From the UHGV virus genome UHGV-0385671: a DNA stretch of 42,417 nt; one strand, given 5' to 3'. The notes beneath the pieces are model-generated. The model searched no databases, was not told the DNA's origin, and saw only the letters and a program-made list of their open reading frames with translations. Below, piece after piece: positions 1-42,417 of this stretch; the first letter of the stretch is position 1, and every line of letters begins with the position of its first letter. This DNA is from a virus. A program made the translations under genes and the position numbers.

Positions 1-844
1 AAATATTACTGATAAATTAGTTGTTAAATATGATGGCCCCGCACTAGCAGATCATAAAATAGATTTGGATGTTTTAACTGAGTCATTGAATGGACTAAAC
101 AACTTGCTTAAAGAAGTTAATTTGGTTGTCAATGGCACTAGTGAGTGTATTAATGTTGAGGTTGAGCCTTTTAAAGAAGGCTCATTTGAGTATTTGATTG
201 ATGTTATTCAAAATCCACTTGACCATTTGAATATATTAAGCATTATTGGGCTTGGAGGTACAGCTGCACTCGCAGCAGGAAATACTCTCATTGACTTAAT
301 TCGTCAGATCAATGGTAGGCAAATAAAACGGTTGACTTTAACAGCGGAAGGAGACTGTAAAATAGTTATGGATGATGGTGAGGAAATTATAGCCCCGTCA
401 TATTTCCGGCCTTTACTTGCCTCACCAAGCATACGCAAATCCTTATCGAAGTTAATTCATAATCCTTTGCAAAAGGAAGGATACGAATCGCTTAAAATTT
501 CAACTCAACAGGGGGTTGAGCTGATTAAGGTGCACGAAGATAATATTGAACCGTTCAGATATAGGCGCGTTCCTGTAGTGCAGTCCTTGTCTGAAAGGGT
601 GATTGAAGAGGCTCTAATCACATTTTTGACTATTCATAAGGATAAAAACACAGGCTGGCGAGTCAACTATGGCGATGACACAATCAGCGTGTCTATAGAA
701 GATACTGAGTTCTTACAACGTGTTAGTACGGGAAGAGAACCTGGTGTTTTTAGTGATGCTTACTTCGTTGATTTGCTCGTCCGTGAGAACTTGAATTCGC
801 TGGACAAAACGTACATAGTTGTTAAAGTACACGGCATCTTATAG
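1..844 (+). CDS. C-terminal part of junction-spanning hypothetical protein (about 290 aa in total), AT-rich accessory cassette gene 1
   Basis: Frame open from position 2 with no upstream stop; ORF track gives 65..844 but the frame is continuous from the window start. No recognised motif. Confidence 0.55.
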   Translation, partial: NITDKLVVKYDGPALADHKIDLDVLTESLNGLNNLLKEVNLVVNGTSECINVEVEPFKEGSFEYLIDVIQNPLDHLNILSIIGLGGTAALAAGNTLIDLIRQINGRQIKRLTLTAEGDCKIVMDDGEEIIAPSYFRPLLASPSIRKSLSKLIHNPLQKEGYESLKISTQQGVELIKVHEDNIEPFRYRRVPVVQSLSERVIEEALITFLTIHKDKNTGWRVNYGDDTISVSIEDTEFLQRVSTGREPGVFSDAYFVDLLVRENLNSLDKTYIVVKVHGIL

Positions 845-867: not shown

Positions 868-1116
868 ATGATTGCTTTTGCTTTTTGGCTGGCTTTTTTT
901 AGCCTGCTTCCCGTACTATATTGGGTTCTTAAGATGGGGTTTGACCGGTTACGCTTTGCGCTTATGCCTAAACATCATCTTGTTCTTGAATGTGTTGACT
1001 CAGAAGGAGTTGTCCGTCGCGATGTCGTTGATGTCTCTTCTGATGATGAATTTTACAAAATTGCAATGAATGCCATTCGTGCTGGAAGATCAGTCAAAGG
1101 AGGGACGTTTGAGTAG
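868..1116 (+). CDS. Small membrane protein (82 aa, one N-terminal TM helix), accessory cassette gene 2
   Basis: ATG 868 preceded by GGGGAGGGGG SD; N-terminus MIAFAFWLAFFSLLPVLYWVL is hydrophobic; 23 nt after gene 1 stop. Confidence 0.5.
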   Translation: MIAFAFWLAFFSLLPVLYWVLKMGFDRLRFALMPKHHLVLECVDSEGVVRRDVVDVSSDDEFYKIAMNAIRAGRSVKGGTFE

Positions 1117-1639
1117 CGCCTCTAAACCTGATAGCTACGAAAAAGTCCCTCTGATTTCTAATGTTGCTGCTGGTGGCATCACTGGTTTTTTAACATTACT
1201 GGTGTCCTCGTGGGACGGTCGTTTTCCGTATATTGGTTCTGATTTAAATACAATAAAGCCATTTCTTTTATTAATGCTTCCCAGTTGCGCTATGTTTCTG
1301 GCACATTGGATAAAGTCGATTGGGTTTAAATGGTCCTTAGGTAGCGTTAATCGACAGTTATTAAGCATTAATAAGAAGAAAGAAAAAGAACTTCGCCGTG
1401 ATATTGAAAAGTACAAAAATGTTATTTCTAATGAAAAGATAGAGGACTTTAAAAGTCAACTTGAACAAGTATTACAAGATCGTCATGATATTATTTCTAA
1501 TAATTATGCACAGAAACTAAGAGAAAGAAATTATACACAAGAAAAATATCATGAGCATAAACAAACCGCTGCAAATGATAATATTGAGCTGCAAGGCATA
1601 CTGGAGAATCAGAAGTTCAATCAAAAAGGCATTGACTAA
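1070..1639 (+). CDS. Membrane protein with two predicted TM segments and a C-terminal coiled-coil-like region, accessory cassette gene 3 (alternative TTG start at 1109 after an AAGGAGG SD)
   Basis: Overlaps gene 2 end; hydrophobic stretches VAAGGITGFLTLLVSSW and IKPFLLLMLPSCAMFLAHWI; Lys/Glu-rich heptad-like C-terminus. Confidence 0.5.
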   Translation: MPFVLEDQSKEGRLSSASKPDSYEKVPLISNVAAGGITGFLTLLVSSWDGRFPYIGSDLNTIKPFLLLMLPSCAMFLAHWIKSIGFKWSLGSVNRQLLSINKKKEKELRRDIEKYKNVISNEKIEDFKSQLEQVLQDRHDIISNNYAQKLRERNYTQEKYHEHKQTAANDNIELQGILENQKFNQKGID

Positions 1640-1643
1640 ATTT

Positions 1644-1940
1644 TTATAATATCCTCTCTAGGTTCTTGCTATCCAGCACCACTACGGTAAAGCCCAGTTT
1701 TCGCAGACGTTCATGTTCGCGCAACTGGTCAGGCCGTGGTGGCTTGCCGGGTGATTTACATTCAACGAAAAAGATACGACCACCTGGTAGCAGGACAATG
1801 CGATCCGGTACCGAGCGGTGACCGGGAGATACAAACTTAAAGGCCACTCCGCCAGCTTTTTTCACTTCAGCGACGAGGTGCTTTTCGATAAGGCTTTCAC
1901 GTTCATAGGCCATCTGAATCCCACTCTTCAAAAAGCACAT
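1644..1940 (-). CDS. VRR-NUC domain nuclease
   Basis: PD-(D/E)XK-like motif PDRIVLLPGGRIFFVECK and overall VRR-NUC pattern; 98 aa; sits in the replication module. Confidence 0.8.
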   Translation of the reverse strand: MCFLKSGIQMAYERESLIEKHLVAEVKKAGGVAFKFVSPGHRSVPDRIVLLPGGRIFFVECKSPGKPPRPDQLREHERLRKLGFTVVVLDSKNLERIL

Positions 1941-2202
1941 TCAATTCCAGTTTCTCTGCCAACGCGTTTTCTGCACGTGCGCCGGCAGAGTACTCCCACT
2001 CTTTGAGCATATAAATCGTATCGGCACAGCGAAGCATTGTGAGGCAGATGTCCATATACTGAGCCTGTGTCAAACCATTGGGTACAGTTGCGGGGTTAAG
2101 CACAACATATCCCTTGTCCGTTAGCTTCTTTGCTGCGGAATGAAAAGCCGGGCGGTTAAATTGCTCGTAACCGCTCATCGGCCCGGCAACGTAAACGATC
2201 AT
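1903..2202 (-). CDS. DUF4406 / nucleoside 2-deoxyribosyltransferase-like protein
   Basis: N-terminal VYVAGPMSG motif and NPA motif typical of this family as I recall it; 99 aa. Confidence 0.65.
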   Translation of the reverse strand: MIVYVAGPMSGYEQFNRPAFHSAAKKLTDKGYVVLNPATVPNGLTQAQYMDICLTMLRCADTIYMLKEWEYSAGARAENALAEKLELNVLFEEWDSDGL

Positions 2203-2414
2203 TCTTCGACCACCTTACGCTTTTCACGCATATTCTGCATCAGGCAAAAATCAGATCTGCGTTCACTCCATTCCTGATTCAATTCGTGATGTGATTCGCG
2301 GTTGGCTTTTGCCCAGACCTTCGCTGCCCGGTCATATTCGCCGGATTGTTCAAGTCGCAAAGCCTCCCTTGCAGCCCTGTAATAAAGTGGATTGTCCCGG
2401 TATTTAAATGACAT
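2199..2414 (-). CDS. Small hypothetical protein (71 aa), possibly ANR-like small regulator
   Basis: ORF with 4-nt overlap to downstream gene in operon; helical pattern PLYYRAAREALRLEQSGEYDRAAKVWAKA; family assignment tentative. Confidence 0.4.
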   Translation of the reverse strand: MSFKYRDNPLYYRAAREALRLEQSGEYDRAAKVWAKANRESHHELNQEWSERRSDFCLMQNMREKRKVVEE

Positions 2415-2419
2415 AGGAG

Positions 2420-4483
2420 TTAATCCTTACGGTAGTGGTACGCCTCAAAACCGCCAGCGTTCAGTGGGATATCGGGCGCCCATTCGGGGTTAGTGGAGAG
2501 AAGCGCGGAAAGCGCTTTATCGTTGAAATCTTCTGTGTCAGGTGCTTCGGTGATCACCTCGTCGTGTACCGTCAGCACAATGCTGTAACCGGCATCTTCG
2601 ATAAGCGGCATGTTTCCGGCCAGAACGTCGCGGGCGGCCGCCTGGGTGACGTTCTCCACCAGCTTTCCGCCGTAGGTTTTGAGTCGTTGCCATTTACGCG
2701 AATAAGAGTTAACACCCATGTAGGTGATATTCCCTTGTTCGATAACCGGAGACGGGTAGCATACAGCGCGTCCGGATGGTAGCTGTATGCGTAGCCACGC
2801 GCCATCGCGGCGGATTTTAAGATAACCGCAATACAATGTTTTTTGCGGTGTGGCGATTGCAGTGCGGACGGTGCGCTCCAGTTCGTACCAGAAATCACAG
2901 GTCGCGGGATGCGCCCGGCGCCAGAGACGTTTAAGTGAGTCGCAGGCGATAAATACCCGTTCAGAAAGGCCGTAGGTTGACTTACGTTTAACCGATTCGC
3001 CGTACCAGCTTTTCGCCTCGCGGATAACATCGCGGGGAATGTTTGGCAGTGCAGCGTTTGCCAGCTCGTCGAGATCGAGACCGTAAACCAGTGCAAAAGT
3101 GATGAAGGCCGACACACCACCACCATAACCCAGACCGAGTTCCATGACTTTACCGATCTGACGCATGCGTTTATCAACATCATCTGGTGCAATATCAAAA
3201 GCTTTTGCATACGCCAGTTTATATAAGTCCGGACCCGTTCCGGCGTCGTACTCTCTGAATGCATTCAGTTTCCATTCTTCTCCTGCCAGCCATGACAGCA
3301 TACGGCCTTCAATGTTCGACAAGTCACTTACCACCAGTTTTTTGCCTGTTGGCGCGATAATGCAGCCACGTAACGCTGAACTGGTTAGTTCCATGATATT
3401 GTCAAACAGCAGGTCTGCACATCCGGCTTTCAGTGCTTCGATGCCTTCGTCTATTTGTTCCTGTTTTAGTGAAGGGCGGGGAAGGTTCTGGGGCTGGAAT
3501 AGCCGTCCGGCCCAGCGCCCGGTACGCGACGCCCCGCAGAACTGTAGCGTACCGCGTAAGCGCCCGTCGTGGCTTACGCCTTTCATTAGTGCCTTGTATT
3601 TACTGGTGCTGGTAGTACTGGCTTGCAGGCGGATAGCCAGCAGTTCTTTCACGGCAGATGGTAAATCGGGGTCGGCTATACGACGTTCTAGGGTACTGCG
3701 TTGCATGTCTGGTAGCTCCACACCGTAGGATTCAACGATGTGCTTAATCAACGCGTCCCGTTGTGTGGCTGCCTGCACTTCGCCATCAGTCATTTCCTGT
3801 GTACGCTTTGCCAGGCGCTTTTGCTCCTGGTCTACCGCTTCGATCGCAGCGCGCGCGAGTTGCATGTCCATGCAGACGCCCCGGTCGTTGATCTGCTGAT
3901 CACGATGCCAGAGCGCCAGCTCTGTCCCCTGATAATTCCACTTCGGCAGACGTTTATAGACTTCGCGCATTGCCTCGATATCCAGTCCGGCGTAAGCAAC
4001 AAAGCGCCGCCATTCTTCCGGGTGGGTTTTACTGGTGGCCCGACGCAGTTTGCTGTTTTTCGGGCGTGGCTTACAGAACAGCTGGATCAGCGCTTTACCT
4101 TCTTTGTCCTTCGCTTTGTCTTGCGGGACGCCTAGTACTTCGCAGAGTTCCCCCAGAGACCCCGGGAGACCGTGCGCCAGCGCCTGCACCATCGTGTCGC
4201 GCCAACGTTCGACTGGCGGTGCCAGTCGCGGCATTGCATAACGCAGAACGGTGCGGTCGAAGTGAGAGTTATGGAAATAAAGCAGGGTTTCAGGGTCTGC
4301 GATTGCTTCGTATAAGCCGTGTGGAATACCACCACCGGCAGTGATATCCCACACGTTTACTGGCCCGTCGTTGATAGCCCATGCGAAAAGCATCACTTCA
4401 ACGCCTTCGGCATACGCATGGGTACCGTTGTTGATCGGAATGTCACAATAGGTTTCCAGGTCGCCCCATAGTATATTGGACAT
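2420..4483 (-). CDS. Family A DNA polymerase with N-terminal 3'-5' exonuclease domain
   Basis: 687 aa; DnaQ-like exo motif near N-terminus (GDLETY) and PolA-like palm region; GAGGA SD 8 nt upstream of ATG. Confidence 0.9.
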
Positions 4484-4544
4484 AAAATATCCTCATATGG
4501 TATATGGTTAAATGCTAGATATCATGAATTAAAGGAGACAACTA

Positions 4545-5234
4545 ATGACTGTGGGTAATAAGAGACAGCCTAATGGATTACCTGAATATTATTGTCACCG
4601 TGGTAACGACATAAAAGATGCGATAGTTCGGGATTTTACTATTCAGCCTGTTGCACACCTGAAACTTATTACTGGACAAACTAAAACCAGTTATTCCGGT
4701 TATCCGTTAACCGATCAGTACTATTGTTTTTCATTTAAAAAACGCTCTGATGAAAATTGTACAGGGGCTTTTTTCTGTGGTAGAGATGTTGCAAAGGATT
4801 TCATTCGGCGTATCGGTTGTACAGAGCTGCCGTTATTTAATCCTATGAAATCGGATACCAGTGCAGCAATAGAACGTTCCGGTTCTGGCTCAGGTAGTTC
4901 TGGTATTACTGTCAAGCCAAATGCTGACAAAAAGCTATTTATAGACGCAGTTCGTCTGTTAATGACGCTGTGGGATTCAACAAGTAAGGGACAAACCCCA
5001 CTGGCGTCGGTTCTTAATGAAGCAATTTCTGGTGGTATAGATAAACCTCCAGAAATTAGACATGTAGTGGCGGTTAATACAATGTTGGGTAACACAAAAA
5101 ATACTTTAACTGGTCTGCTGGATAAAGCAAGAGCGAAGTATCCTGATGTGTTATTCAGAGATTTTGATTTCACGCCTCTTAACGAGATTGTAAAACGTTC
5201 AAAATCATATAATAAGCATCCCCCTTGTTATTGA
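4545..5234 (+). CDS. Hypothetical Cys-rich protein with Gly/Ser linker, encoded antisense inside the leftward replication operon
   Basis: Strong SD AAGGAGA 7 nt upstream of ATG 4545; Cys/His cluster at N-terminus (CHRGN..C..C..C), SGSGSGSSG linker; lower GC by eye than neighbours. Confidence 0.6.
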   Translation: MTVGNKRQPNGLPEYYCHRGNDIKDAIVRDFTIQPVAHLKLITGQTKTSYSGYPLTDQYYCFSFKKRSDENCTGAFFCGRDVAKDFIRRIGCTELPLFNPMKSDTSAAIERSGSGSGSSGITVKPNADKKLFIDAVRLLMTLWDSTSKGQTPLASVLNEAISGGIDKPPEIRHVVAVNTMLGNTKNTLTGLLDKARAKYPDVLFRDFDFTPLNEIVKRSKSYNKHPPCY

Positions 5235-5869
5235 GTATCAGACACTGTATTGGTAGGAAGGCCTATCATTTCATTTAATGTCTCTCGATGTACCGCTGGT
5301 GCTAAAGGGACTGGCGGTGCGTCTGTTGGAAGCAGTTCTTTAGCTTCGGGCCATACATCCAGTAATCGTTTTACTGTCCGAACTTTATTTAGAGCCGCGC
5401 TGACGTTCTGTATGATTTCGGTTTCATCACTTTTAATTTGTGTGTAGAGAGCATCAAAGCTATAAAACTCCGTTACCAGAGGATCTTCGCCAAGTAGAGT
5501 AAATTCTGCAGGTGCTATTTTATTAATATGCTCGGGGGCTCCTGATTCATAACCTCTGTAGTTGCCATTGAAATAAATGTTTGCTCTGGCTCCAGCCAGA
5601 TTGAGATATATGCAGCAATCTTTTCGAATTAAAGAACTATTGGTTTTTAATGAATCAGGGATTTTTGTGACCATGGATTCAATCTTTTTTATATTTTTTA
5701 ATATTTCAGCTTCTTTCTCTACGCCCCCGATAGCTGCAAGCCGAACACGTTCGGCCCATTCAACACGAGCAGCTCGTAGTGCTGATTTACGTTTGGGGAT
5801 ACCCGCTTTCTCAAGTGCGTTATTGATGATTTGAGTTTTAAGGTGATTAGTTAATACGGGCTGTGACAT
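5228..5869 (-). CDS. Hypothetical early protein (213 aa); start chosen at ATG 5869 rather than the GTG at 5899
   Basis: GAGGGAAAG SD upstream of ATG 5869; the longer GTG start lies inside a perfect hairpin. Confidence 0.55.
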   Translation of the reverse strand: MSQPVLTNHLKTQIINNALEKAGIPKRKSALRAARVEWAERVRLAAIGGVEKEAEILKNIKKIESMVTKIPDSLKTNSSLIRKDCCIYLNLAGARANIYFNGNYRGYESGAPEHINKIAPAEFTLLGEDPLVTEFYSFDALYTQIKSDETEIIQNVSAALNKVRTVKRLLDVWPEAKELLPTDAPPVPLAPAVHRETLNEMIGLPTNTVSDTQ

Positions 5870-5889
5870 TATACTTTCCCTCATGAGAT

Positions 5890-5910
5890 CCCCCAGCACG
5901 TAGCTGGGGG
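5890..5910. other. Perfect 8-bp stem-loop (CCCCCAGC-ACGTA-GCTGGGGG) in the 5' leader of gene 5228..5869
   Basis: Inverted repeat read directly; followed on the plus strand by a U-rich tract, so it could terminate antisense transcripts or act as a processing or translational element. Confidence 0.4.
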
Positions 5911-5920
5911 ATGAATATTT

Positions 5921-6469
5921 TTAAATTAGTGCTTCAGCATCAGCACCTTCGCTGATATCGTCAAAATCGTCAGCGCTTGCCACTCCGCCGCCAGCGAATG
6001 CATCGCCGTCTCGCAGGAACTGGACTCCGCCGAGTGAGGCATTAATGCGTTTACCGAAATTATTGTCCTGTGCCCAGATATCGATAACGGCGTTTACATA
6101 GCACCCTGCATAGGGACGTCCATCAGCCTGAATTAGTGGCGAACGATCGCGATCAAGAACAGCTGGGCGCGCTTTGTTAGCAGCATTCAGGAAGAAATTA
6201 CCGGGAAAGCCTTCATACTCTGCTTTTTCATCACCATCATGTAGGCACAGATTGAGTTTTTTCTCCAGCTGGCTATAAATGGGCTCCCACTTTTCTCCCC
6301 ATTTTTCCTTCGCTACCTGCTTCATAGCTTTACGGATTTCTTCCAGTTGTGGGTGTTTGGGTGACATTAAAAATACTGCGGAGAAACGCGGATCGCCTTC
6401 GCCGTTTACAGTTTTAGCTTCAAACAGAGACGGGAAGGCCAGACGAACATTGTTCAGCTTCAGTTTCAT
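5921..6469 (-). CDS. DUF2815-family phage protein (commonly paired with DUF2800; putative ssDNA-binding)
   Basis: N-terminus MKLKLNNVRLAFPSLFEA and gene order next to DUF2800 and PolA. Confidence 0.7.
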   Translation of the reverse strand: MKLKLNNVRLAFPSLFEAKTVNGEGDPRFSAVFLMSPKHPQLEEIRKAMKQVAKEKWGEKWEPIYSQLEKKLNLCLHDGDEKAEYEGFPGNFFLNAANKARPAVLDRDRSPLIQADGRPYAGCYVNAVIDIWAQDNNFGKRINASLGGVQFLRDGDAFAGGGVASADDFDDISEGADAEALI

Positions 6470-37024: not shown

Positions 37025-37034
37025 TTAAACGGAA

Positions 37035-37580
37035 TTATGTGTGAGATGAGTTATAAATAATTTCAGAGTGAAATTTAGTAATGAATGTGGAGTCATCAGG
37101 AATGTCATGCAGTACCAATGCATGAGCTCCTATTTTTACATCATTCCCTATATGCACTTTGCCACCAAGGATGGTGGCGTTACAGCCAATGGTTACATTA
37201 TTTCCTATGACAATATCCATATCATTAAATTCACCGCGAAGTCCAATAGTTACTCCAGGCTTAATTGAACAATTTTCACCTATTGTAACTTTGTGACCGA
37301 TAACAACGCCATTGAGATAAGATATGTCAAACCCTTTACCAATATTTACAGTTAAGGGAACGGTTACATTGTATTTATCAAGAATGAAACGTTCTATTTT
37401 TCCCGCAATCTTCCGACAGTATCCGCCTTTATCAAAAAGGTATTTGGCTATGCGCCACCAAAATAAATAACGTAATCTTCTGTGTTTTATTGCGCGAACA
37501 ATTGCTTTTCGCCAGGAGAAAGGGCGTTTATAACCTATTACTTCATAGTGTATACACTTTTTAAGTTCACTAATATTCAT
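37035..37580 (-). CDS. Left-handed beta-helix (hexapeptide-repeat) acetyltransferase, WcaB/serine acetyltransferase-like; candidate surface-polysaccharide modifier
   Basis: Tandem hexapeptide repeats (VVIGHKVTIGENCSIKPGVTIG..., IVIGNNVTIGCNATILGGKVHIGNDVKIGAHALV); AT-rich; convergent with tfa. Confidence 0.7.
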   Translation of the reverse strand: MNISELKKCIHYEVIGYKRPFSWRKAIVRAIKHRRLRYLFWWRIAKYLFDKGGYCRKIAGKIERFILDKYNVTVPLTVNIGKGFDISYLNGVVIGHKVTIGENCSIKPGVTIGLRGEFNDMDIVIGNNVTIGCNATILGGKVHIGNDVKIGAHALVLHDIPDDSTFITKFHSEIIYNSSHT

Positions 37581-39014: not shown

Positions 39015-39317
39015 ATTGCTGTATTACTATGAAAATAAATGTGTTTTTATTTGATCTCACACATATCACAATTAATACAGCGTTTAGTAATTAGTAAAGA
39101 CATTTCAATGAATTACCGTTAAATCATTTTAAAATCAGTAAGTTGTATCGAGTTTGTATGCTTTACTGTCATTAACTTACTGTATGTTGATCCAGTGTAT
39201 TTAACCTTGATAAACTCAGTCCAGCAACACAAAACCGCAACACATTACATTTTGTCCCGTAGAAAAGACTTGTATGTGTGAGCTTGTTTTCTGCGCCTAC
39301 GCAGATAAGGATTGAGA

Positions 39318-40715
39318 ATGCCGCGCACTGTAACACATAATCCGGATAGCCCCAATAATGACGATGTTTTAGCCGCATCTGAAAAATGGGACGCCTGTAA
39401 ACCCCCCTATACCAGCGCACACATGAAAATCTGTGTTGCTGCCGCCAAAATCATCCTCGCTGCTTCCGGTGTGGCTCGCCGTTCCAAATACGAAAAAGAG
39501 AACTATCTCCGTATCGATTTCAGCAAAGCCGGTAAGGTTACATTTTACGCCGAGTTTCCAAAAAAGATGGGCCTCAAAGGTAAAAAGCTCGGCGAGTGGC
39601 CGGAGCTCGCTATCCAGCTGGCGCGCGAAAAAGCGCTAGGTATGGCTGACGGTGGCCTGCGGGCAGAGTCCGTACATGCAGCGCTGGAAATGTACCGGGA
39701 TGACCTCAAAGCCAAAGTCGCACGGCAGAAGCTGAGCCCGGACAGTTTCACAACCTACGGGGTGCGTATAGACCGGATTAAAGCAACGTTCGGCGAGCGC
39801 GAGGTGTTCAGCGACGTAACATACAATCGGCTGGTGGAAGTGCTGGACGAGTGGATCGCCACTCGCTCGAACAATAACGCCCTGGAGTTGTTTGCCGAGC
39901 TCCGTCGGTTCTGGAAGTTCTGCGCACCTACTCTTTGCAACGGCCGCAATGTTGCCGCCAGTCTGCCAGATGATTATGTTTCCTCCCGCGTACAGAAACC
40001 TACCCCCACACGGCTTTTTACCGATATTGAATCAATCGCCCGACTCTGGCTCAATGTTGCTGCCTGCGCCTCTGTACACCAGAAGAATGCTGTTCGCTTC
40101 ATGATCATCACTGGCGTTCGTCCGATTAATGTCCATAACCTGCGCTGGGACTACGTTCACGAGGAGGCTGGTGAAATTGTTTATCCGGAAGGGGTTATCG
40201 GCATGCGAGGGGCTATGAAAACACAAAAGGCTTTCCGCCTGCCGATAACGCCTGAGATCCGGCGGATTATCGACGAGCAGAAAGCCTGGCGTGATTCAGT
40301 TCCTGAGTGCAATAGGGATTATGTATTTTTGCAGCCACGTGATCCAATGCAGCCATTTTCAAAACGATCACTGGATAAGCTAGTGAAAACATACAGCCCG
40401 GACGGGGCTGTAAAAGGAATAAAACATGATGGGACTGTTAAAGGGAAAGACGGTGCATTTAATACTATGTGCCGTAAATTCCTTAAGAGCAATGTTATTG
40501 CCTTGATGAAGGAAAGAGGCTATTCCCGCTCAGACCGAAGGGAAATCAGCCTCCTTTGCCTTCATCACTCCAGCAAGTCAGATGACCCGATGGCAGAACA
40601 TTACGACTTTTCTGATGAGATTTTACAGGAAGAGATTGCGTTGAAGCGCGAAGCTTTCGAAGCTCACGAGCGGAGCATACTTGCGCAGGTGGCATTGCTA
40701 CGACGGCGAGGTTAA
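39318..40715 (+). CDS. int: Tyrosine integrase (P4-like family)
   Basis: AAGGA SD upstream of ATG 39318; catalytic-region motifs TGVRPINVHNLRWDYV, MKTQKAFRLPI, LCLHHSSKS, EHYDFS. Confidence 0.8.
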   Translation: MPRTVTHNPDSPNNDDVLAASEKWDACKPPYTSAHMKICVAAAKIILAASGVARRSKYEKENYLRIDFSKAGKVTFYAEFPKKMGLKGKKLGEWPELAIQLAREKALGMADGGLRAESVHAALEMYRDDLKAKVARQKLSPDSFTTYGVRIDRIKATFGEREVFSDVTYNRLVEVLDEWIATRSNNNALELFAELRRFWKFCAPTLCNGRNVAASLPDDYVSSRVQKPTPTRLFTDIESIARLWLNVAACASVHQKNAVRFMIITGVRPINVHNLRWDYVHEEAGEIVYPEGVIGMRGAMKTQKAFRLPITPEIRRIIDEQKAWRDSVPECNRDYVFLQPRDPMQPFSKRSLDKLVKTYSPDGAVKGIKHDGTVKGKDGAFNTMCRKFLKSNVIALMKERGYSRSDRREISLLCLHHSSKSDDPMAEHYDFSDEILQEEIALKREAFEAHERSILAQVALLRRRG

Positions 40716-40912
40716 TACCGGCTGCGACACTTTTGAATAAAAGCGTCTACATTGCGGCGCTCATAACGAACTACTTTTGCACTGAAACGAATTGGTGCCA
40801 GGATAGCCCGATGACGATGCTTAATATTCCACTCACATAGCGTTTTCTGTGTAATACCTAACTTTTGGCATACTTCATCCGGGGTGAGTAAATCGTCGGG
40901 TTTCTCGCTCAT
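40712..40912 (-). CDS. AlpA-family HTH protein (likely excisionase/regulator)
   Basis: 66 aa; LTPDEVCQKLGITQKTLCEW and VVRYERRNVDAFI pattern; 4-nt overlaps with the helicase gene and convergent with int. Confidence 0.7.
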   Translation of the reverse strand: MSEKPDDLLTPDEVCQKLGITQKTLCEWNIKHRHRAILAPIRFSAKVVRYERRNVDAFIQKCRSRY

Positions 40913-42306
40913 GCTATACCTCTCTTTTTCATGGCATCGAGCAGGATGTCCTGCACTGTTCGTTTTGAGTTGCGCCGCTCCATCACCATTTCGTCCATAG
41001 TGTCGGCAGCAATAATGTGGTGAATAAATACCGGACGATTGTGTCCGGCCTGTATCTGCCTGGTGGGGCCGATACGTTCAATAATTTGCTGATATTGCTC
41101 CAGGTCCCACCAGTGTGAGAAAAATACCAGTATATTCCCGCCGTCCTGCATGTTCAGGCCGTGGCCCGCGCTGGCTGGGTGTGCAAAGAGAACAGGAATC
41201 TTTCCGGAATTCCAGTCGCGCAGTGTCTGTGGATCCTGGTCGAGGTGACGACCGCGAGGGAATGCTTTAAGCAAGCGTTCAAGATCGTGTTTCCAGTGAT
41301 AAGCAACCAGCACAGGTGCGCCAGCTGCTTCGGTCAGTATGCTGTCCAGCGCCTGTAGTTTGGTGTCATGCAGTTCTGACCAACTTCCGGTGTCGTCTGT
41401 GTATACTGCGCCACTGGCGATTTGAAGACACTTCAGTGTCTTTGCCGCGGCGTTCGGTGCTTCGATACCTTCGCCATTCAGCTCGAGGAACATTTCCTTT
41501 TCCATTTCACGATACTGCTGACGGGCCTTCGGCGGCATATCCACGCGGATTACGTTATGGATGGGGTCTTTGATATCGAACCAGTCGGCCGCATCCAGCG
41601 AGAGGGTCACATCGGCTAATGCTCGCTGTATTTCACCCTGTGAGTGAGCAAAAGGCTCCAGTTTAGTCCAGCTCTGTCCCGGAAACTGTATCGAGTTGAA
41701 CCAGCGTGAGGTAAACGCGCCGTAAGTGCGCCCGAGACGTTGCCCTTGGTCCACAAACCACGATTGTCCCCACAAATCTACCAGGCCGTTCGGTGCTGGC
41801 GTACCGGTGAGATTTATCCAGCGCCGGACATACTTATGCGCCACTTTGCCCAGCGCCGCCGCGCGCTTACCACCACCTCGCAGCCGGAAGGATTTTAGCC
41901 GGGTGCTTTCATCTGGAATGACAATACCGAACGGCCATCGTTCTCCCAATTCTTCAACCAGCCAGACAAGGTTATCGTAGTTGATGGTGAACACGCTTGC
42001 GTTGCTGTTCGCCAGCGCCGTAGAGCGCGCTTTGGCATTACCAACAATCGGCTGCACCTCGATATTGCGCAAATGCCCCCACTTCACTGCTTCATCCGGC
42101 CAGGTGTTTGCTGCAACACGTAGCGGCGCGAGGACCAGTGCGGGGCGTGTTTCTGCCCCTGCCATAAAAAGATCTTCCAGCGCAGTGAGCGTTGCCACGG
42201 TTTTACCCATTCCCATGCCTGCCCAGATGTTGCAGCGCATAATGTCGATTTGATGATTGATGATGAGATCTTGGTAGGGGTGAGGTGAAAATATAGCATA
42301 GTCCAT
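40909..42306 (-). CDS. SNF2-family helicase (superfamily 2 ATPase)
   Basis: Walker A GMGMGKT, DEAD-like box IPDEST, C-terminal helicase motifs; GGAGATA SD upstream of ATG 42306. Confidence 0.8.
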   Translation of the reverse strand: MDYAIFSPHPYQDLIINHQIDIMRCNIWAGMGMGKTVATLTALEDLFMAGAETRPALVLAPLRVAANTWPDEAVKWGHLRNIEVQPIVGNAKARSTALANSNASVFTINYDNLVWLVEELGERWPFGIVIPDESTRLKSFRLRGGGKRAAALGKVAHKYVRRWINLTGTPAPNGLVDLWGQSWFVDQGQRLGRTYGAFTSRWFNSIQFPGQSWTKLEPFAHSQGEIQRALADVTLSLDAADWFDIKDPIHNVIRVDMPPKARQQYREMEKEMFLELNGEGIEAPNAAAKTLKCLQIASGAVYTDDTGSWSELHDTKLQALDSILTEAAGAPVLVAYHWKHDLERLLKAFPRGRHLDQDPQTLRDWNSGKIPVLFAHPASAGHGLNMQDGGNILVFFSHWWDLEQYQQIIERIGPTRQIQAGHNRPVFIHHIIAADTMDEMVMERRNSKRTVQDILLDAMKKRGIA

Positions 42307-42373
42307 GGTATTGTATCTCCATGAATGAACTTATGTAGTAATAGCTTAATTATTTATTTCGAAAGGAACAGTT

Positions 42374-42417
42374 ATGACCTCAGCTTATACAGATGTCCAG
42401 CAAGAAGAAAATATTAC
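42374..42417 (+). CDS. N-terminal fragment of junction-spanning hypothetical protein (accessory cassette gene 1); continues at 1..844
   Basis: ATG at 42374 preceded by AAAGGAA Shine-Dalgarno; MTSAYTDVQQEENIT then runs off the window end in the same frame as ORF 1..844. Confidence 0.5.
   Translation, partial: MTSAYTDVQQEENI
42409..42417. repeat. 9-nt terminal identity (aaatattac) with positions 1..9; signature of a circular or overlapping-end sequence
   Basis: Last 9 nt aaatattac equal first 9 nt; reading frame of ORF 42374.. continues into 1..844 with or without collapsing the repeat. Confidence 0.7.

What the first reader, a model, noticed from the sequence alone, without database searches (positions are those of the whole stretch)
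4545..5899. Cys-rich plus-strand gene embedded antisense in the leftward replication operon, convergent with an unknown early gene
ORF 4545..5234 has a strong AAGGAGA SD, is divergent from polA with only about 60 bp between starts, and overlaps the 3' end of minus-strand gene 5228..5869 by 7 nt. It has an N-terminal Cys/His cluster, a Gly/Ser linker and looks more AT-rich than its neighbours. It interrupts what would otherwise be one contiguous minus-strand operon, so polA needs its own promoter or read-through.
Basis: seen in the sequence. Interest (0 to 1): 0.55.

Follow-up and report, generated by a model that had tools for sequence, protein, structure and literature searches.

The report
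Swappable accessory gene beside phage polymerase
The plus-strand ORF is a real, conserved gene of unknown function (Pfam family UCP028583) that sits in a frequently swapped cargo slot of a temperate E. coli phage and, in other bacteria, often lies next to anti-phage defence genes, so it is a reasonable but untested candidate for a new phage-conflict gene.

Summary
ORF 4545..5234 (+, 229 aa) has an AAGGAGA Shine-Dalgarno sequence. Its start lies 61 bp from the polA start, and it overlaps minus-strand gene 5228..5869 by 7 nt.

That neighbour is not unknown: it is an Nmad5-family gene.

The ORF is a true gene:
- dN/dS is 0.10-0.16.
- It belongs to the uncharacterised family PF27729/UCP028583, with 421 clusters at 50% identity.
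- The AlphaFold model is confident (pLDDT 83) and has no convincing fold match.

The "Cys/His cluster" is not a conserved metal site.

The gene occupies a hypervariable slot between polA and the ssDNA-binding gene. Near-identical E. coli prophages carry at least six alternative contents there, four of them plus-strand genes.

A TGnTATATGGTT promoter-like motif upstream is invariant in all copies examined. Relatives in Dickeya, Enterobacter and Morganella are isolated islets that keep scraps of polA and Nmad5 around an intact ORF.

More distant members sit beside or inside Lamassu, Avs4, SIR2, type I R-M and a PD-lambda-2-like operon.

Best reading: an autonomously expressed prophage moron acting in phage-host conflict, probably defence. 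The mechanism is unknown.

Interest is moderate.

The parts
4545..5234 (+). CDS of 229 aa, family PF27729/UCP028583. It has an N-terminal alpha/beta domain (residues ~14-100), a disordered Gly/Ser loop (104-121) and a C-terminal six-helix domain (127-223).
   Evidence: ORF. Family membership. dN/dS 0.10-0.16. AlphaFold model with pLDDT 82.8 and pTM 0.81.
4532..4538 (+). Shine-Dalgarno sequence AAGGAGA, 7 nt upstream of the ATG.
   Evidence: Read directly from the sequence.
4498..4509 (+). Conserved TGGTATATGGTT, an extended -10-like element (TG, one base, then TATATG). It is the putative promoter of the cargo gene. A TTGGAC/TGGACA -35-like hexamer at 4476-4482 overlaps the polA start codon.
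   Evidence: Invariant in 10 aligned upstream regions. These include the decayed chromosomal islets and a relative that carries a different cargo gene. The consensus promoter scan did not call it, because the hexamer ends in G. Its function is inferred.
4511..5254 (.). The ORF229 cassette as defined against relatives that carry an 89-aa membrane protein plus Nmad5 instead.
   Evidence: Homology to L006 stops at 4510 and resumes at 5255.
4484..5920 (.). The whole variable slot between the polA start codon and the DUF2815 stop codon.
   Evidence: Homology to phage vB_EcoM-689R2 (L001) stops exactly at 4483 and resumes at 5921. At least six alternative contents occur in E. coli prophages.
5228..5869 (-). 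Nmad5-family gene (213 aa), convergent with the ORF. The two stop regions overlap by 7 nt.
   Evidence: PF18757 with E 1.5e-54 and phrog_1965. RefSeq gives it the same name. The same convergent overlap (4 nt) occurs in a prophage whose ORF homologue is 73% identical.
5888..5912 (+). GC-rich 10-bp hairpin followed by a T-run (5916-5922) on the plus strand only. It is a candidate terminator for the plus-strand transcript after it has crossed Nmad5 in antisense. On the minus strand it has no U-run.
   Evidence: Terminator scan. Folding gives dG -20.8 kcal/mol with z about -5 on both strands. Present in variants a and b.
5251..5268 (+). Weak hairpin followed by TTTCATTT just after the ORF stop codon. 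It is not convincing as a terminator.
   Evidence: The fold has z -1.2.
2420..4483 (-). Family A DNA polymerase (687 aa). It forms the left border of the slot and is divergent from the ORF.
5921..6469 (-). DUF2815/Enc34-type ssDNA-binding protein. It forms the right border of the slot.
   Evidence: PF10991 with E 7.6e-44.

Best explanation
ORF 4545..5234 is a self-contained accessory gene (a 'moron') of the uncharacterised family UCP028583/PF27729. It sits in a hypervariable cargo slot between polA and the Nmad5/ssDNA-binding genes of a temperate enterobacterial phage.

Shown here:
- It is a real gene under purifying selection.
- It is compositionally foreign.
- It is exchanged for unrelated genes in near-identical phages.
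- It is preserved on its own in other genera after the flanking phage genes have decayed.

Inferred:
- It is transcribed rightwards from its own conserved extended -10-type promoter (TGGTATATGG, 4498-4507) while the leftward early operon is repressed in the lysogen.
- Because its 3' end overlaps Nmad5, its transcript probably runs antisense through Nmad5 to the hairpin at 5888-5912.
- It is probably silenced by transcriptional collision once the early operon fires.

Most likely function (inferred from genomic association only): a role in phage-host conflict, most probably protecting the lysogen against other phages. It would act as a non-enzymatic two-domain binding protein, that is, a sensor, blocker or adaptor, rather than as an enzyme.

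Confidence, step by step:
- About 0.9 that it is a real autonomous accessory gene in a cargo slot.
- About 0.45 that its function is anti-phage defence or superinfection exclusion.
For: Real gene:
- 17 close homologues and 421 family clusters.
- dN/dS 0.10-0.16.
- Confident two-domain model, pLDDT 82.8 and pTM 0.81.

Moron features:
- GC 0.39-0.41 against 0.50-0.59 for the flanks.
- Exact breakpoints at the polA start and the ssb stop.

The slot holds at least six alternative contents in E. coli prophages whose flanks are about 95-99% identical:
- This ORF plus Nmad5, in 26 of 157 genomes.
- An 89-aa membrane protein plus Nmad5.
- A 209-aa membrane protein.
- A 166-aa protein.
- A further variant with a shorter span, not examined in detail.
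- A BRO-N protein.

Long residence in the slot:
- polA|ORF|Nmad5 is kept in a prophage whose ORF homologue is 73% identical.
- polA|ORF|DUF2303 is found in a Pantoea-type lineage at 56-58% identity.

Retention after prophage decay:
- Islets in Dickeya, Enterobacter and Morganella keep an intact ORF.
- On the left they retain only tens of nucleotides of polA, and on the right an Nmad5 3' remnant (seen in the Dickeya islet and L015; faint in Enterobacter, none evident in the Morganella-type islets).

Promoter-like motif: invariant in all 10 upstream regions aligned, including the islets.

Defence neighbourhoods of family members:
- Adjacent to a complete Lamassu system, LmuA/C/B.
- Directly after Avs4, E 2e-166.
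- Next to a large SIR2 protein.
- Third gene of a HigB-like + Xre/M78 operon, inside a type I R-M locus. The middle gene matches PD-Lambda-2_B at E 1.5e-38.
- In an operon after a methylase-specificity fusion and PDC-S32.

A second plus-strand low-GC cargo in the same phage matches the defence candidate PDC-S42.
Against: - There are no expression data and no phenotype.
- The ORF matches no PADLOC model, no PHROG and no NCBIfam.
- It has no known fold, so no biochemical mechanism can be read from it.
- Several contexts show nothing defence-related (L005, L015).
- The promoter-like hexamer ends in G and failed the consensus scan.
- There is no convincing terminator directly after the ORF.
- Some copies are truncated: P0013 and P0015.
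Confidence: 0.5

Rival explanations
1. It is a counter-defence (anti-defence) protein that the phage uses against a host immune system. It would bind and inhibit a defence component such as Lamassu or a SIR2 effector.
For: - It is a small, non-enzymatic protein with a novel fold, in a rapidly exchanged phage accessory slot next to replication genes.
- Family members lie beside Lamassu, SIR2 and Avs4. An inhibitor or immunity partner could also sit there.
Against: - It is on the opposite strand to the early lytic operon, with its own conserved promoter-like element.
- It is kept intact under purifying selection in chromosomal islets with no phage left.
- It lies inside operons of defence-type genes.
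Confidence: 0.15
2. It is a nucleic-acid-binding regulator. It would control neighbouring conflict genes or, in the phage, the divergent polA/cargo promoter region. It would be analogous in role to the regulators often found next to diverse defence systems.
For: - Both domains are mildly basic, with median pI 8.7 and 8.9 over 133 members.
- Conserved Lys and aromatic residues lie on the N-domain sheet.
- It appears beside many unrelated systems.
Against: - It has no HTH, wHTH or other known DNA-binding family.
- Isolated islets keep the gene without any partner operon.
Confidence: 0.15
3. It is a replication accessory factor that works with the adjacent family A polymerase or with Nmad5.
For: - It lies immediately next to polA and Nmad5 in three diverged phage lineages.
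Against: - It is on the opposite strand.
- It is absent from most near-identical phages, which keep polA.
- Most family members are nowhere near a polymerase or Nmad5.
- The islets keep the ORF while polA and Nmad5 are deleted.
Confidence: 0.04
4. It is a zinc-finger or metal-binding protein built around the N-terminal Cys/His cluster.
For: - Cys17, His38 and Cys78 are conserved in 71-89% of members.
Against: - Those positions are replaced by Leu, Tyr, Val and Ala in many members.
- The other Cys/His positions are not conserved.
- No zinc-finger Pfam family matches.
- Only Gly79 and Asn178 are invariant.
Confidence: 0.05

Closest known systems
Prophage 'morons' (autonomous extra genes inserted between conserved phage genes, as defined for HK97/lambda-like phages; from my own knowledge)
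   Same: - It has a foreign base composition.
- Its presence or absence falls precisely between the same two genes in close relatives.
- It has its own promoter-like element.
- Its orientation is independent of the surrounding operon.
   Different: - Expression in the lysogen has not been shown.
- There is no clean terminator directly after the gene. Instead its 3' end overlaps the convergent Nmad5 gene.
Defence and accessory hotspots of temperate phages and satellites, such as the P2/P4 hotspots, and exclusion genes embedded in early operons, such as lambda rexAB and sieB (from my own knowledge)
   Same: - It is a fixed slot flanked by conserved core genes, holding many unrelated alternative cargo genes.
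- These include small membrane proteins typical of exclusion functions.
   Different: - None of the cargo genes at this slot matches a validated defence system.
- The slot lies inside a polA-type replication module.
PD-lambda-2 (Vassallo et al. 2022, PMC9519451): a HigB-like protein, an Xre-peptidase fusion, and a third component needed for defence
   Same: - A family member at 33% identity (P0017) sits in the third position of an operon.
- That operon has a HigB-like gene and an Xre/M78 gene matching PD-Lambda-2_B at E 1.5e-38.
- In the paper, component C is needed for defence but not for toxin neutralisation.
   Different: - P0017 and the window ORF hit no PADLOC model at E<=1, which would include any PD-Lambda-2 C-component model the library holds.
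- The window gene stands alone, with no A or B partners.
Pfam PF27729 / PIRSF UCP028583 (uncharacterised conserved protein)
   Same: - The window protein and all its homologues carry this precomputed family assignment.
   Different: - The family has no described function.
- No paper in the library mentions it.

Membership tests
PF27729 / UCP028583 | Significant match to the family model over the full length. | tested here: met
   A precomputed PF27729.1 assignment is attached to the 99%-identical cluster representative and to all 17 homologues. The family name appears. A profile built from the homologues retrieves 421 clusters, 87 of them at E<=1e-30. The local Pfam copy lacks this model and returned nothing.
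Prophage moron | Base composition differs from the flanking phage genes. | tested here: met
   GC is 0.385-0.415 against 0.50-0.59.
Prophage moron | Present or absent between the same two genes in closely related phages. | tested here: met
   The breakpoints fall exactly at 4483 and 5921 against L001, and at 4510 and 5255 against L006. Only 26 of 157 E. coli genomes that match the flanks carry this version.
Prophage moron | Has its own promoter and terminator. | tested here: inconclusive
   A conserved extended -10-like TGnTATATGGTT is present, but the consensus scan did not call it. The hairpin after the stop codon is weak, at z -1.2. The strong plus-strand terminator-like hairpin comes only at 5888-5912.
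Prophage moron | Expressed from the repressed prophage. | not testable with these tools
   This needs RNA-seq or 5' RACE in lysogens.
Known anti-phage defence systems (PADLOC-DB v2) | Match to a model of a known or candidate defence protein. | tested here: not met
   The only hit is IetA at E 0.034 over 50 residues. Nine other family members give no hit at E<=1.
PD-lambda-2 component C | Sequence match to a PD-Lambda-2 third-component model, if PADLOC holds one, together with A and B partners. | tested here: not met
   The distant member P0017 has A-like and B-like partners, but no family member gave any PADLOC hit at E<=1; I did not confirm that the library holds a C-component model. The window gene has no such partners.
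Zinc-finger / Cys-His metal site | Conserved set of 3-4 Cys/His ligands and a match to a zinc-finger family or fold. | tested here: not met
Nmad5 (the convergent neighbour 5228..5869) | Full-length match to PF18757. | tested here: met
   E 1.5e-54, covering residues 6-205 of 213 and positions 3-206 of the 206-position model. RefSeq uses the same name.

The most novel reading that the evidence does not exclude
UCP028583/PF27729 is a previously unrecognised stand-alone anti-phage protein family, or a portable sensor/effector module that plugs into different defence systems. It has a fold with no solved or viral-predicted relative, it is carried by prophages in a dedicated cargo slot, and it is retained by hosts after the prophage decays.
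Probability: 0.35. Interest if true: 0.7.

Novelty: new member of a known kind. Interest (0 to 1): 0.5.

Why it matters
If the gene protects lysogens, it would add a widespread single-gene family with a new fold to the list of anti-phage systems (421 clusters at 50% identity, from Enterobacterales to a Treponema MAG and Dyella). It would also mark the polA|ssb junction of this phage group as a defence hotspot, like those of P2 and P4.

The decayed islets are a clean natural experiment. They suggest that hosts select for the gene itself: the ORF stays intact while polA and Nmad5 are reduced to scraps.

If it has no such role, the finding is just a well-documented moron of unknown function.

Tried and rejected
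Searches that gave nothing for the ORF:
- The local Pfam copy, PHROGs, NCBIfam and PADLOC.
- A scan of 46 diverse members against Pfam at E<=1, which gave only scattered single hits.
- A profile search against PDB sequences, with zero hits at E<=10.
- Foldseek against viral predicted structures, with nothing at E<=0.001.
- Papers mentioning PF27729, UCP028583 or the RefSeq protein accessions: none.
- Rfam and tRNA scans of the window: none.

Searches that could not be run or returned little:
- The AFDB Foldseek library was not available.
- The genome and metagenome scans that did run returned only 4 loci each.

Ideas rejected:
- The ORF and Nmad5 are an obligate pair. Nmad5 occurs with a different cargo gene, and the ORF occurs with DUF2303 or alone.
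- The alternative cargo in vB_EcoM-689R2 is a diverged homologue. BLASTP gave E = 10.
- The antisense ORF 4721..5173 is the real gene. Conservation and dN/dS fit the plus-strand frame.

Full report
**1. What is in the sequence**

The window is a circularly permuted, complete temperate phage genome. It matches an E. coli prophage inserted between yfhL and yfhH at 99.8-100% identity. The two ends of the prophage meet at 39057-39093.

- AAGGAGA lies at 4532-4538.
- There are 61 bp between its start and the start of the divergent family A polymerase gene (2420..4483, minus strand).
- It overlaps minus-strand gene 5228..5869 by 7 nt.
- RefSeq annotates the same two CDSs with the same overlap.
- GC falls to 0.385-0.42 over about 4400-5900, against 0.50-0.59 in polA. 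The dip covers both the ORF and its convergent neighbour.

**2. The neighbours**

- The 'unknown early gene' is an Nmad5-family gene (PF18757, E 1.5e-54; phrog_1965).
- To its right lie a DUF2815/Enc34-type ssDNA-binding gene and a DUF2800 PD-(D/E)XK nuclease gene.
- The only experimental paper on Nmad5 that I found reports point mutations in nmad5 of Dhillonvirus phages that let them escape the Tmn defence system. Its biochemical role is not established (PMC11846954).

**3. The ORF is a real gene**

- It has 17 close homologues at 33-99% identity in E. coli, Dickeya, Enterobacter, Morganella, Providencia and metagenomes. All carry the precomputed Pfam assignment PF27729, named UCP028583.
- A profile of these finds 421 clusters at 50% identity. 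Nearly all are stand-alone proteins of 200-230 aa.
- Pairwise dN/dS is 0.10-0.16 wherever dS is not saturated.
- AlphaFold gives a confident model, with pLDDT 82.8 and pTM 0.81. It has an N-terminal alpha/beta domain (two helices, three strands, one helix; residues 14-100), a disordered Gly/Ser loop (104-121) and a six-helix C-terminal domain.
- Family-wide conserved motifs are AHxKLLxGQxKxS, TDxYYxFxY, GxFxCG, LPLFNPL and VNTII. Only Gly79 and Asn178 are invariant.
- The Cys/His 'cluster' is not a conserved metal site. Cys17, Cys78 and His38 are kept in 71-89% of members and are otherwise replaced by hydrophobic residues. The remaining Cys/His positions are not conserved.

**4. No known family or fold**

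- Nothing matched in the local Pfam copy, PHROGs, NCBIfam or PADLOC.
- Nothing matched in PDB by sequence.
- Foldseek against viral predicted structures gave nothing at E<=0.001.
- The AFDB library could not be searched.

**5. The gene sits in a cargo slot**

Against phage vB_EcoM-689R2, homology (98%) stops exactly at the polA start codon (4483) and resumes exactly at the DUF2815 stop codon (5921). In between, that phage carries an unrelated plus-strand 209-aa membrane protein and no Nmad5.

Against E. coli C11, homology runs to 4510 and resumes at 5255. That prophage has an 89-aa plus-strand membrane protein in place of the ORF, and it keeps Nmad5.

Among the 157 complete E. coli genomes that match the flanks:
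- 26 carry this version.
- About 32 carry the 89-aa version.
- Most carry the 209-aa version.
- Rarer versions include a 166-aa plus-strand gene and a minus-strand BRO-N gene.

A plus-strand cargo gene inside the leftward operon is therefore the rule for this phage group, not an exception. The early leftward transcript must normally read through an antisense cargo gene to reach polA (inference). The promoter scan gives no evidence for a separate polA promoter: 3 sites were found, against 3.9 expected from shuffles.

**6. Long residence and retention**

- A prophage whose ORF homologue is 73% identical keeps the order polA | ORF (+) | Nmad5 (-), with a 4-nt overlap.
- A Pantoea-type lineage (polA about 70% identical, ORF 56-58% identical) has polA | ORF (+) and then, where checked (L014), DUF2303 rather than Nmad5; window Nmad5 finds no match in any of the four loci.

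The 'chromosomal' homologues in Dickeya, Enterobacter and Morganella lie at unrelated loci, but they share an islet of about 850-880 bp. It runs from about 130-155 nt upstream of the start to 4-32 nt after the stop.
- The left end of the islet is a decayed remnant of the polA 5' end plus the intergenic region.
- In the Dickeya islet and L015 the right end shows a remnant of the Nmad5 3' end; the trace is faint in Enterobacter and not evident in the Morganella-type islets.
- The ORF inside is intact and under purifying selection.

I read this as selection for the gene itself after loss of the phage. The similar islet boundaries suggest one decay event followed by spread, rather than many independent decays.

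**7. Expression signals (inferred)**

- The block TG(G/A)TATATGGTT (window 4498-4509) is invariant in ten aligned upstream regions. These include the islets, where polA is gone, and the relative with a different cargo gene.
- It has the form of an extended -10 element (TG, one base, then TATATG). A TGGACA hexamer lies 18 nt upstream and overlaps the polA start codon.
- The hexamer ends in G, so the consensus scan did not call it.
- There is no convincing terminator right after the stop codon (z -1.2).
- The first strong plus-strand terminator-like structure is the hairpin at 5888-5912 followed by a T-run. It has dG -20.8 kcal/mol and z about -5, and it has a U-run on the plus strand only.
- Together with the convergent overlap, this predicts a lysogen transcript that runs antisense across Nmad5. 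It also predicts mutual interference with the early operon.

**8. Functional clue from neighbours**

Outside the phage slot, family members lie in the following contexts:

| Locus | Context |
|---|---|
| L024-26 | Next to a complete Lamassu system, LmuA/LmuC/LmuB (E 1.7e-168, 5e-43, 1.8e-235) |
| L040 | Directly after Avs4 (E 1.9e-166) |
| L038/39 | After a fragment matching a PADLOC DRT-associated DUF1848 model |
| Dickeya (L002) | Next to a 1056-aa SIR2 protein |
| Enterobacter (L012) | About 5 kb from a LmuB_C/MC3 gene pair |
| L003/L004 | Third gene of a HigB-like + Xre/M78-peptidase operon inside a type I R-M locus |
| L031-33 | 4-nt overlap after a methylase-specificity fusion and a PDC-S32 gene |
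| L042 | Before TerB_N and ArfC genes |
| L027-30 | In a prophage |
| L005, L015 | No defence neighbour |

In L003/L004 the middle gene matches PD-Lambda-2_B at E 1.5e-38. In the published PD-lambda-2 system, the third component is required for defence but not for toxin neutralisation (PMC9519451).

This is a suggestive association with defence islands, but the sample is small and has no background control.

In the same phage, another plus-strand low-GC cargo matches the defence candidate PDC-S42. It wraps around the window ends, with its visible part at 65..844.

**9. Verdict**

- The gene is best described as a moron of family UCP028583 in a hypervariable slot.
- I put about 0.9 on its being a real autonomous accessory gene, and about 0.45 on its being an anti-phage defence or exclusion gene.
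- The rival readings are counter-defence, a regulator, and a replication accessory factor.
- The kind of feature is well known: a prophage moron or hotspot cargo gene.
- The family itself is uncharacterised and has no recognisable fold, which makes it a worthwhile experimental candidate rather than a surprise.

Noticed in passing
window 39057-39093; also 39057-40951 and 40944-42417: The window is a circularly permuted whole phage genome. The right end of the prophage and the integrase side overlap by 37 bp at 39057-39093, which is the likely att core. The integrase, excisionase-like HTH and DEAD/DEAH helicase genes follow. The IS66 element present in the reference strain's prophage is absent here.
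   Followed up: partly
window 42374-42417 joined to 1-844, then 868-1116 and 1070-1639 (+): There is a second plus-strand, low-GC (0.33-0.42) cargo block inside the leftward operon, between the helicase and VRR-NUC genes. Its first gene matches NCBIfam LAPAL_fam (E 1e-48) and the PADLOC defence candidate PDC-S42 (E 1e-32). Two small, probably membrane, proteins follow.
   Followed up: partly
window 1903-2414 (-), compared with L001 3105-3866 and L006 1295-2056: A second variable slot lies just downstream of polA. This phage has an ANR-family gene plus a DUF4406 gene there, whereas close relatives carry a TIR-domain protein.
   Followed up: no
window 5888-5912: A GC-rich 10-bp hairpin lies between the DUF2815 stop codon and the Nmad5 start codon. 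It has dG -20.8 kcal/mol and z about -5, with a U-run on the plus strand only. In strain ECZP248 an IS1 element has inserted in this Nmad5-DUF2815 interval (L034 2103-2800) and leaves the ORF intact.
   Followed up: partly
L002 5850-6720, L012 6850-7720, L013 6860-7700, L008 100-930: Islets of about 850-880 bp sit at unrelated chromosomal sites in Dickeya, Enterobacter and Morganella. Each holds an intact ORF homologue with a decayed scrap of polA on the left; a scrap of Nmad5 on the right is clear in the Dickeya islet only. How such a small unit spread with similar boundaries is unexplained. I did not look for terminal repeats or a mobility gene at the islet ends.
   Followed up: partly
window about 37033-37578 (-): A minus-strand serine acetyltransferase gene sits just after the tail-fibre and assembly genes, near the prophage end. 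It may be a lysogenic-conversion gene. Coordinates were transferred from the RefSeq annotation of the near-identical prophage.
   Followed up: no
window 4721-5173 (-): A 150-aa GTG-start ORF lies antisense inside the plus-strand gene. Conservation and dN/dS fit the plus-strand frame, so this ORF is most likely spurious.
   Followed up: partly
L003 3660-5741 and L004 742-2823: A metagenomic operon, from a cluster that includes a Treponema MAG protein, has a HigB-like gene, an Xre-HTH/M78 peptidase gene (PD-Lambda-2_B, E 1.5e-38) and a UCP028583 member. It lies between type I R-M hsdR and hsdS/M genes. This is a PD-lambda-2-like system with a different third component.
   Followed up: partly
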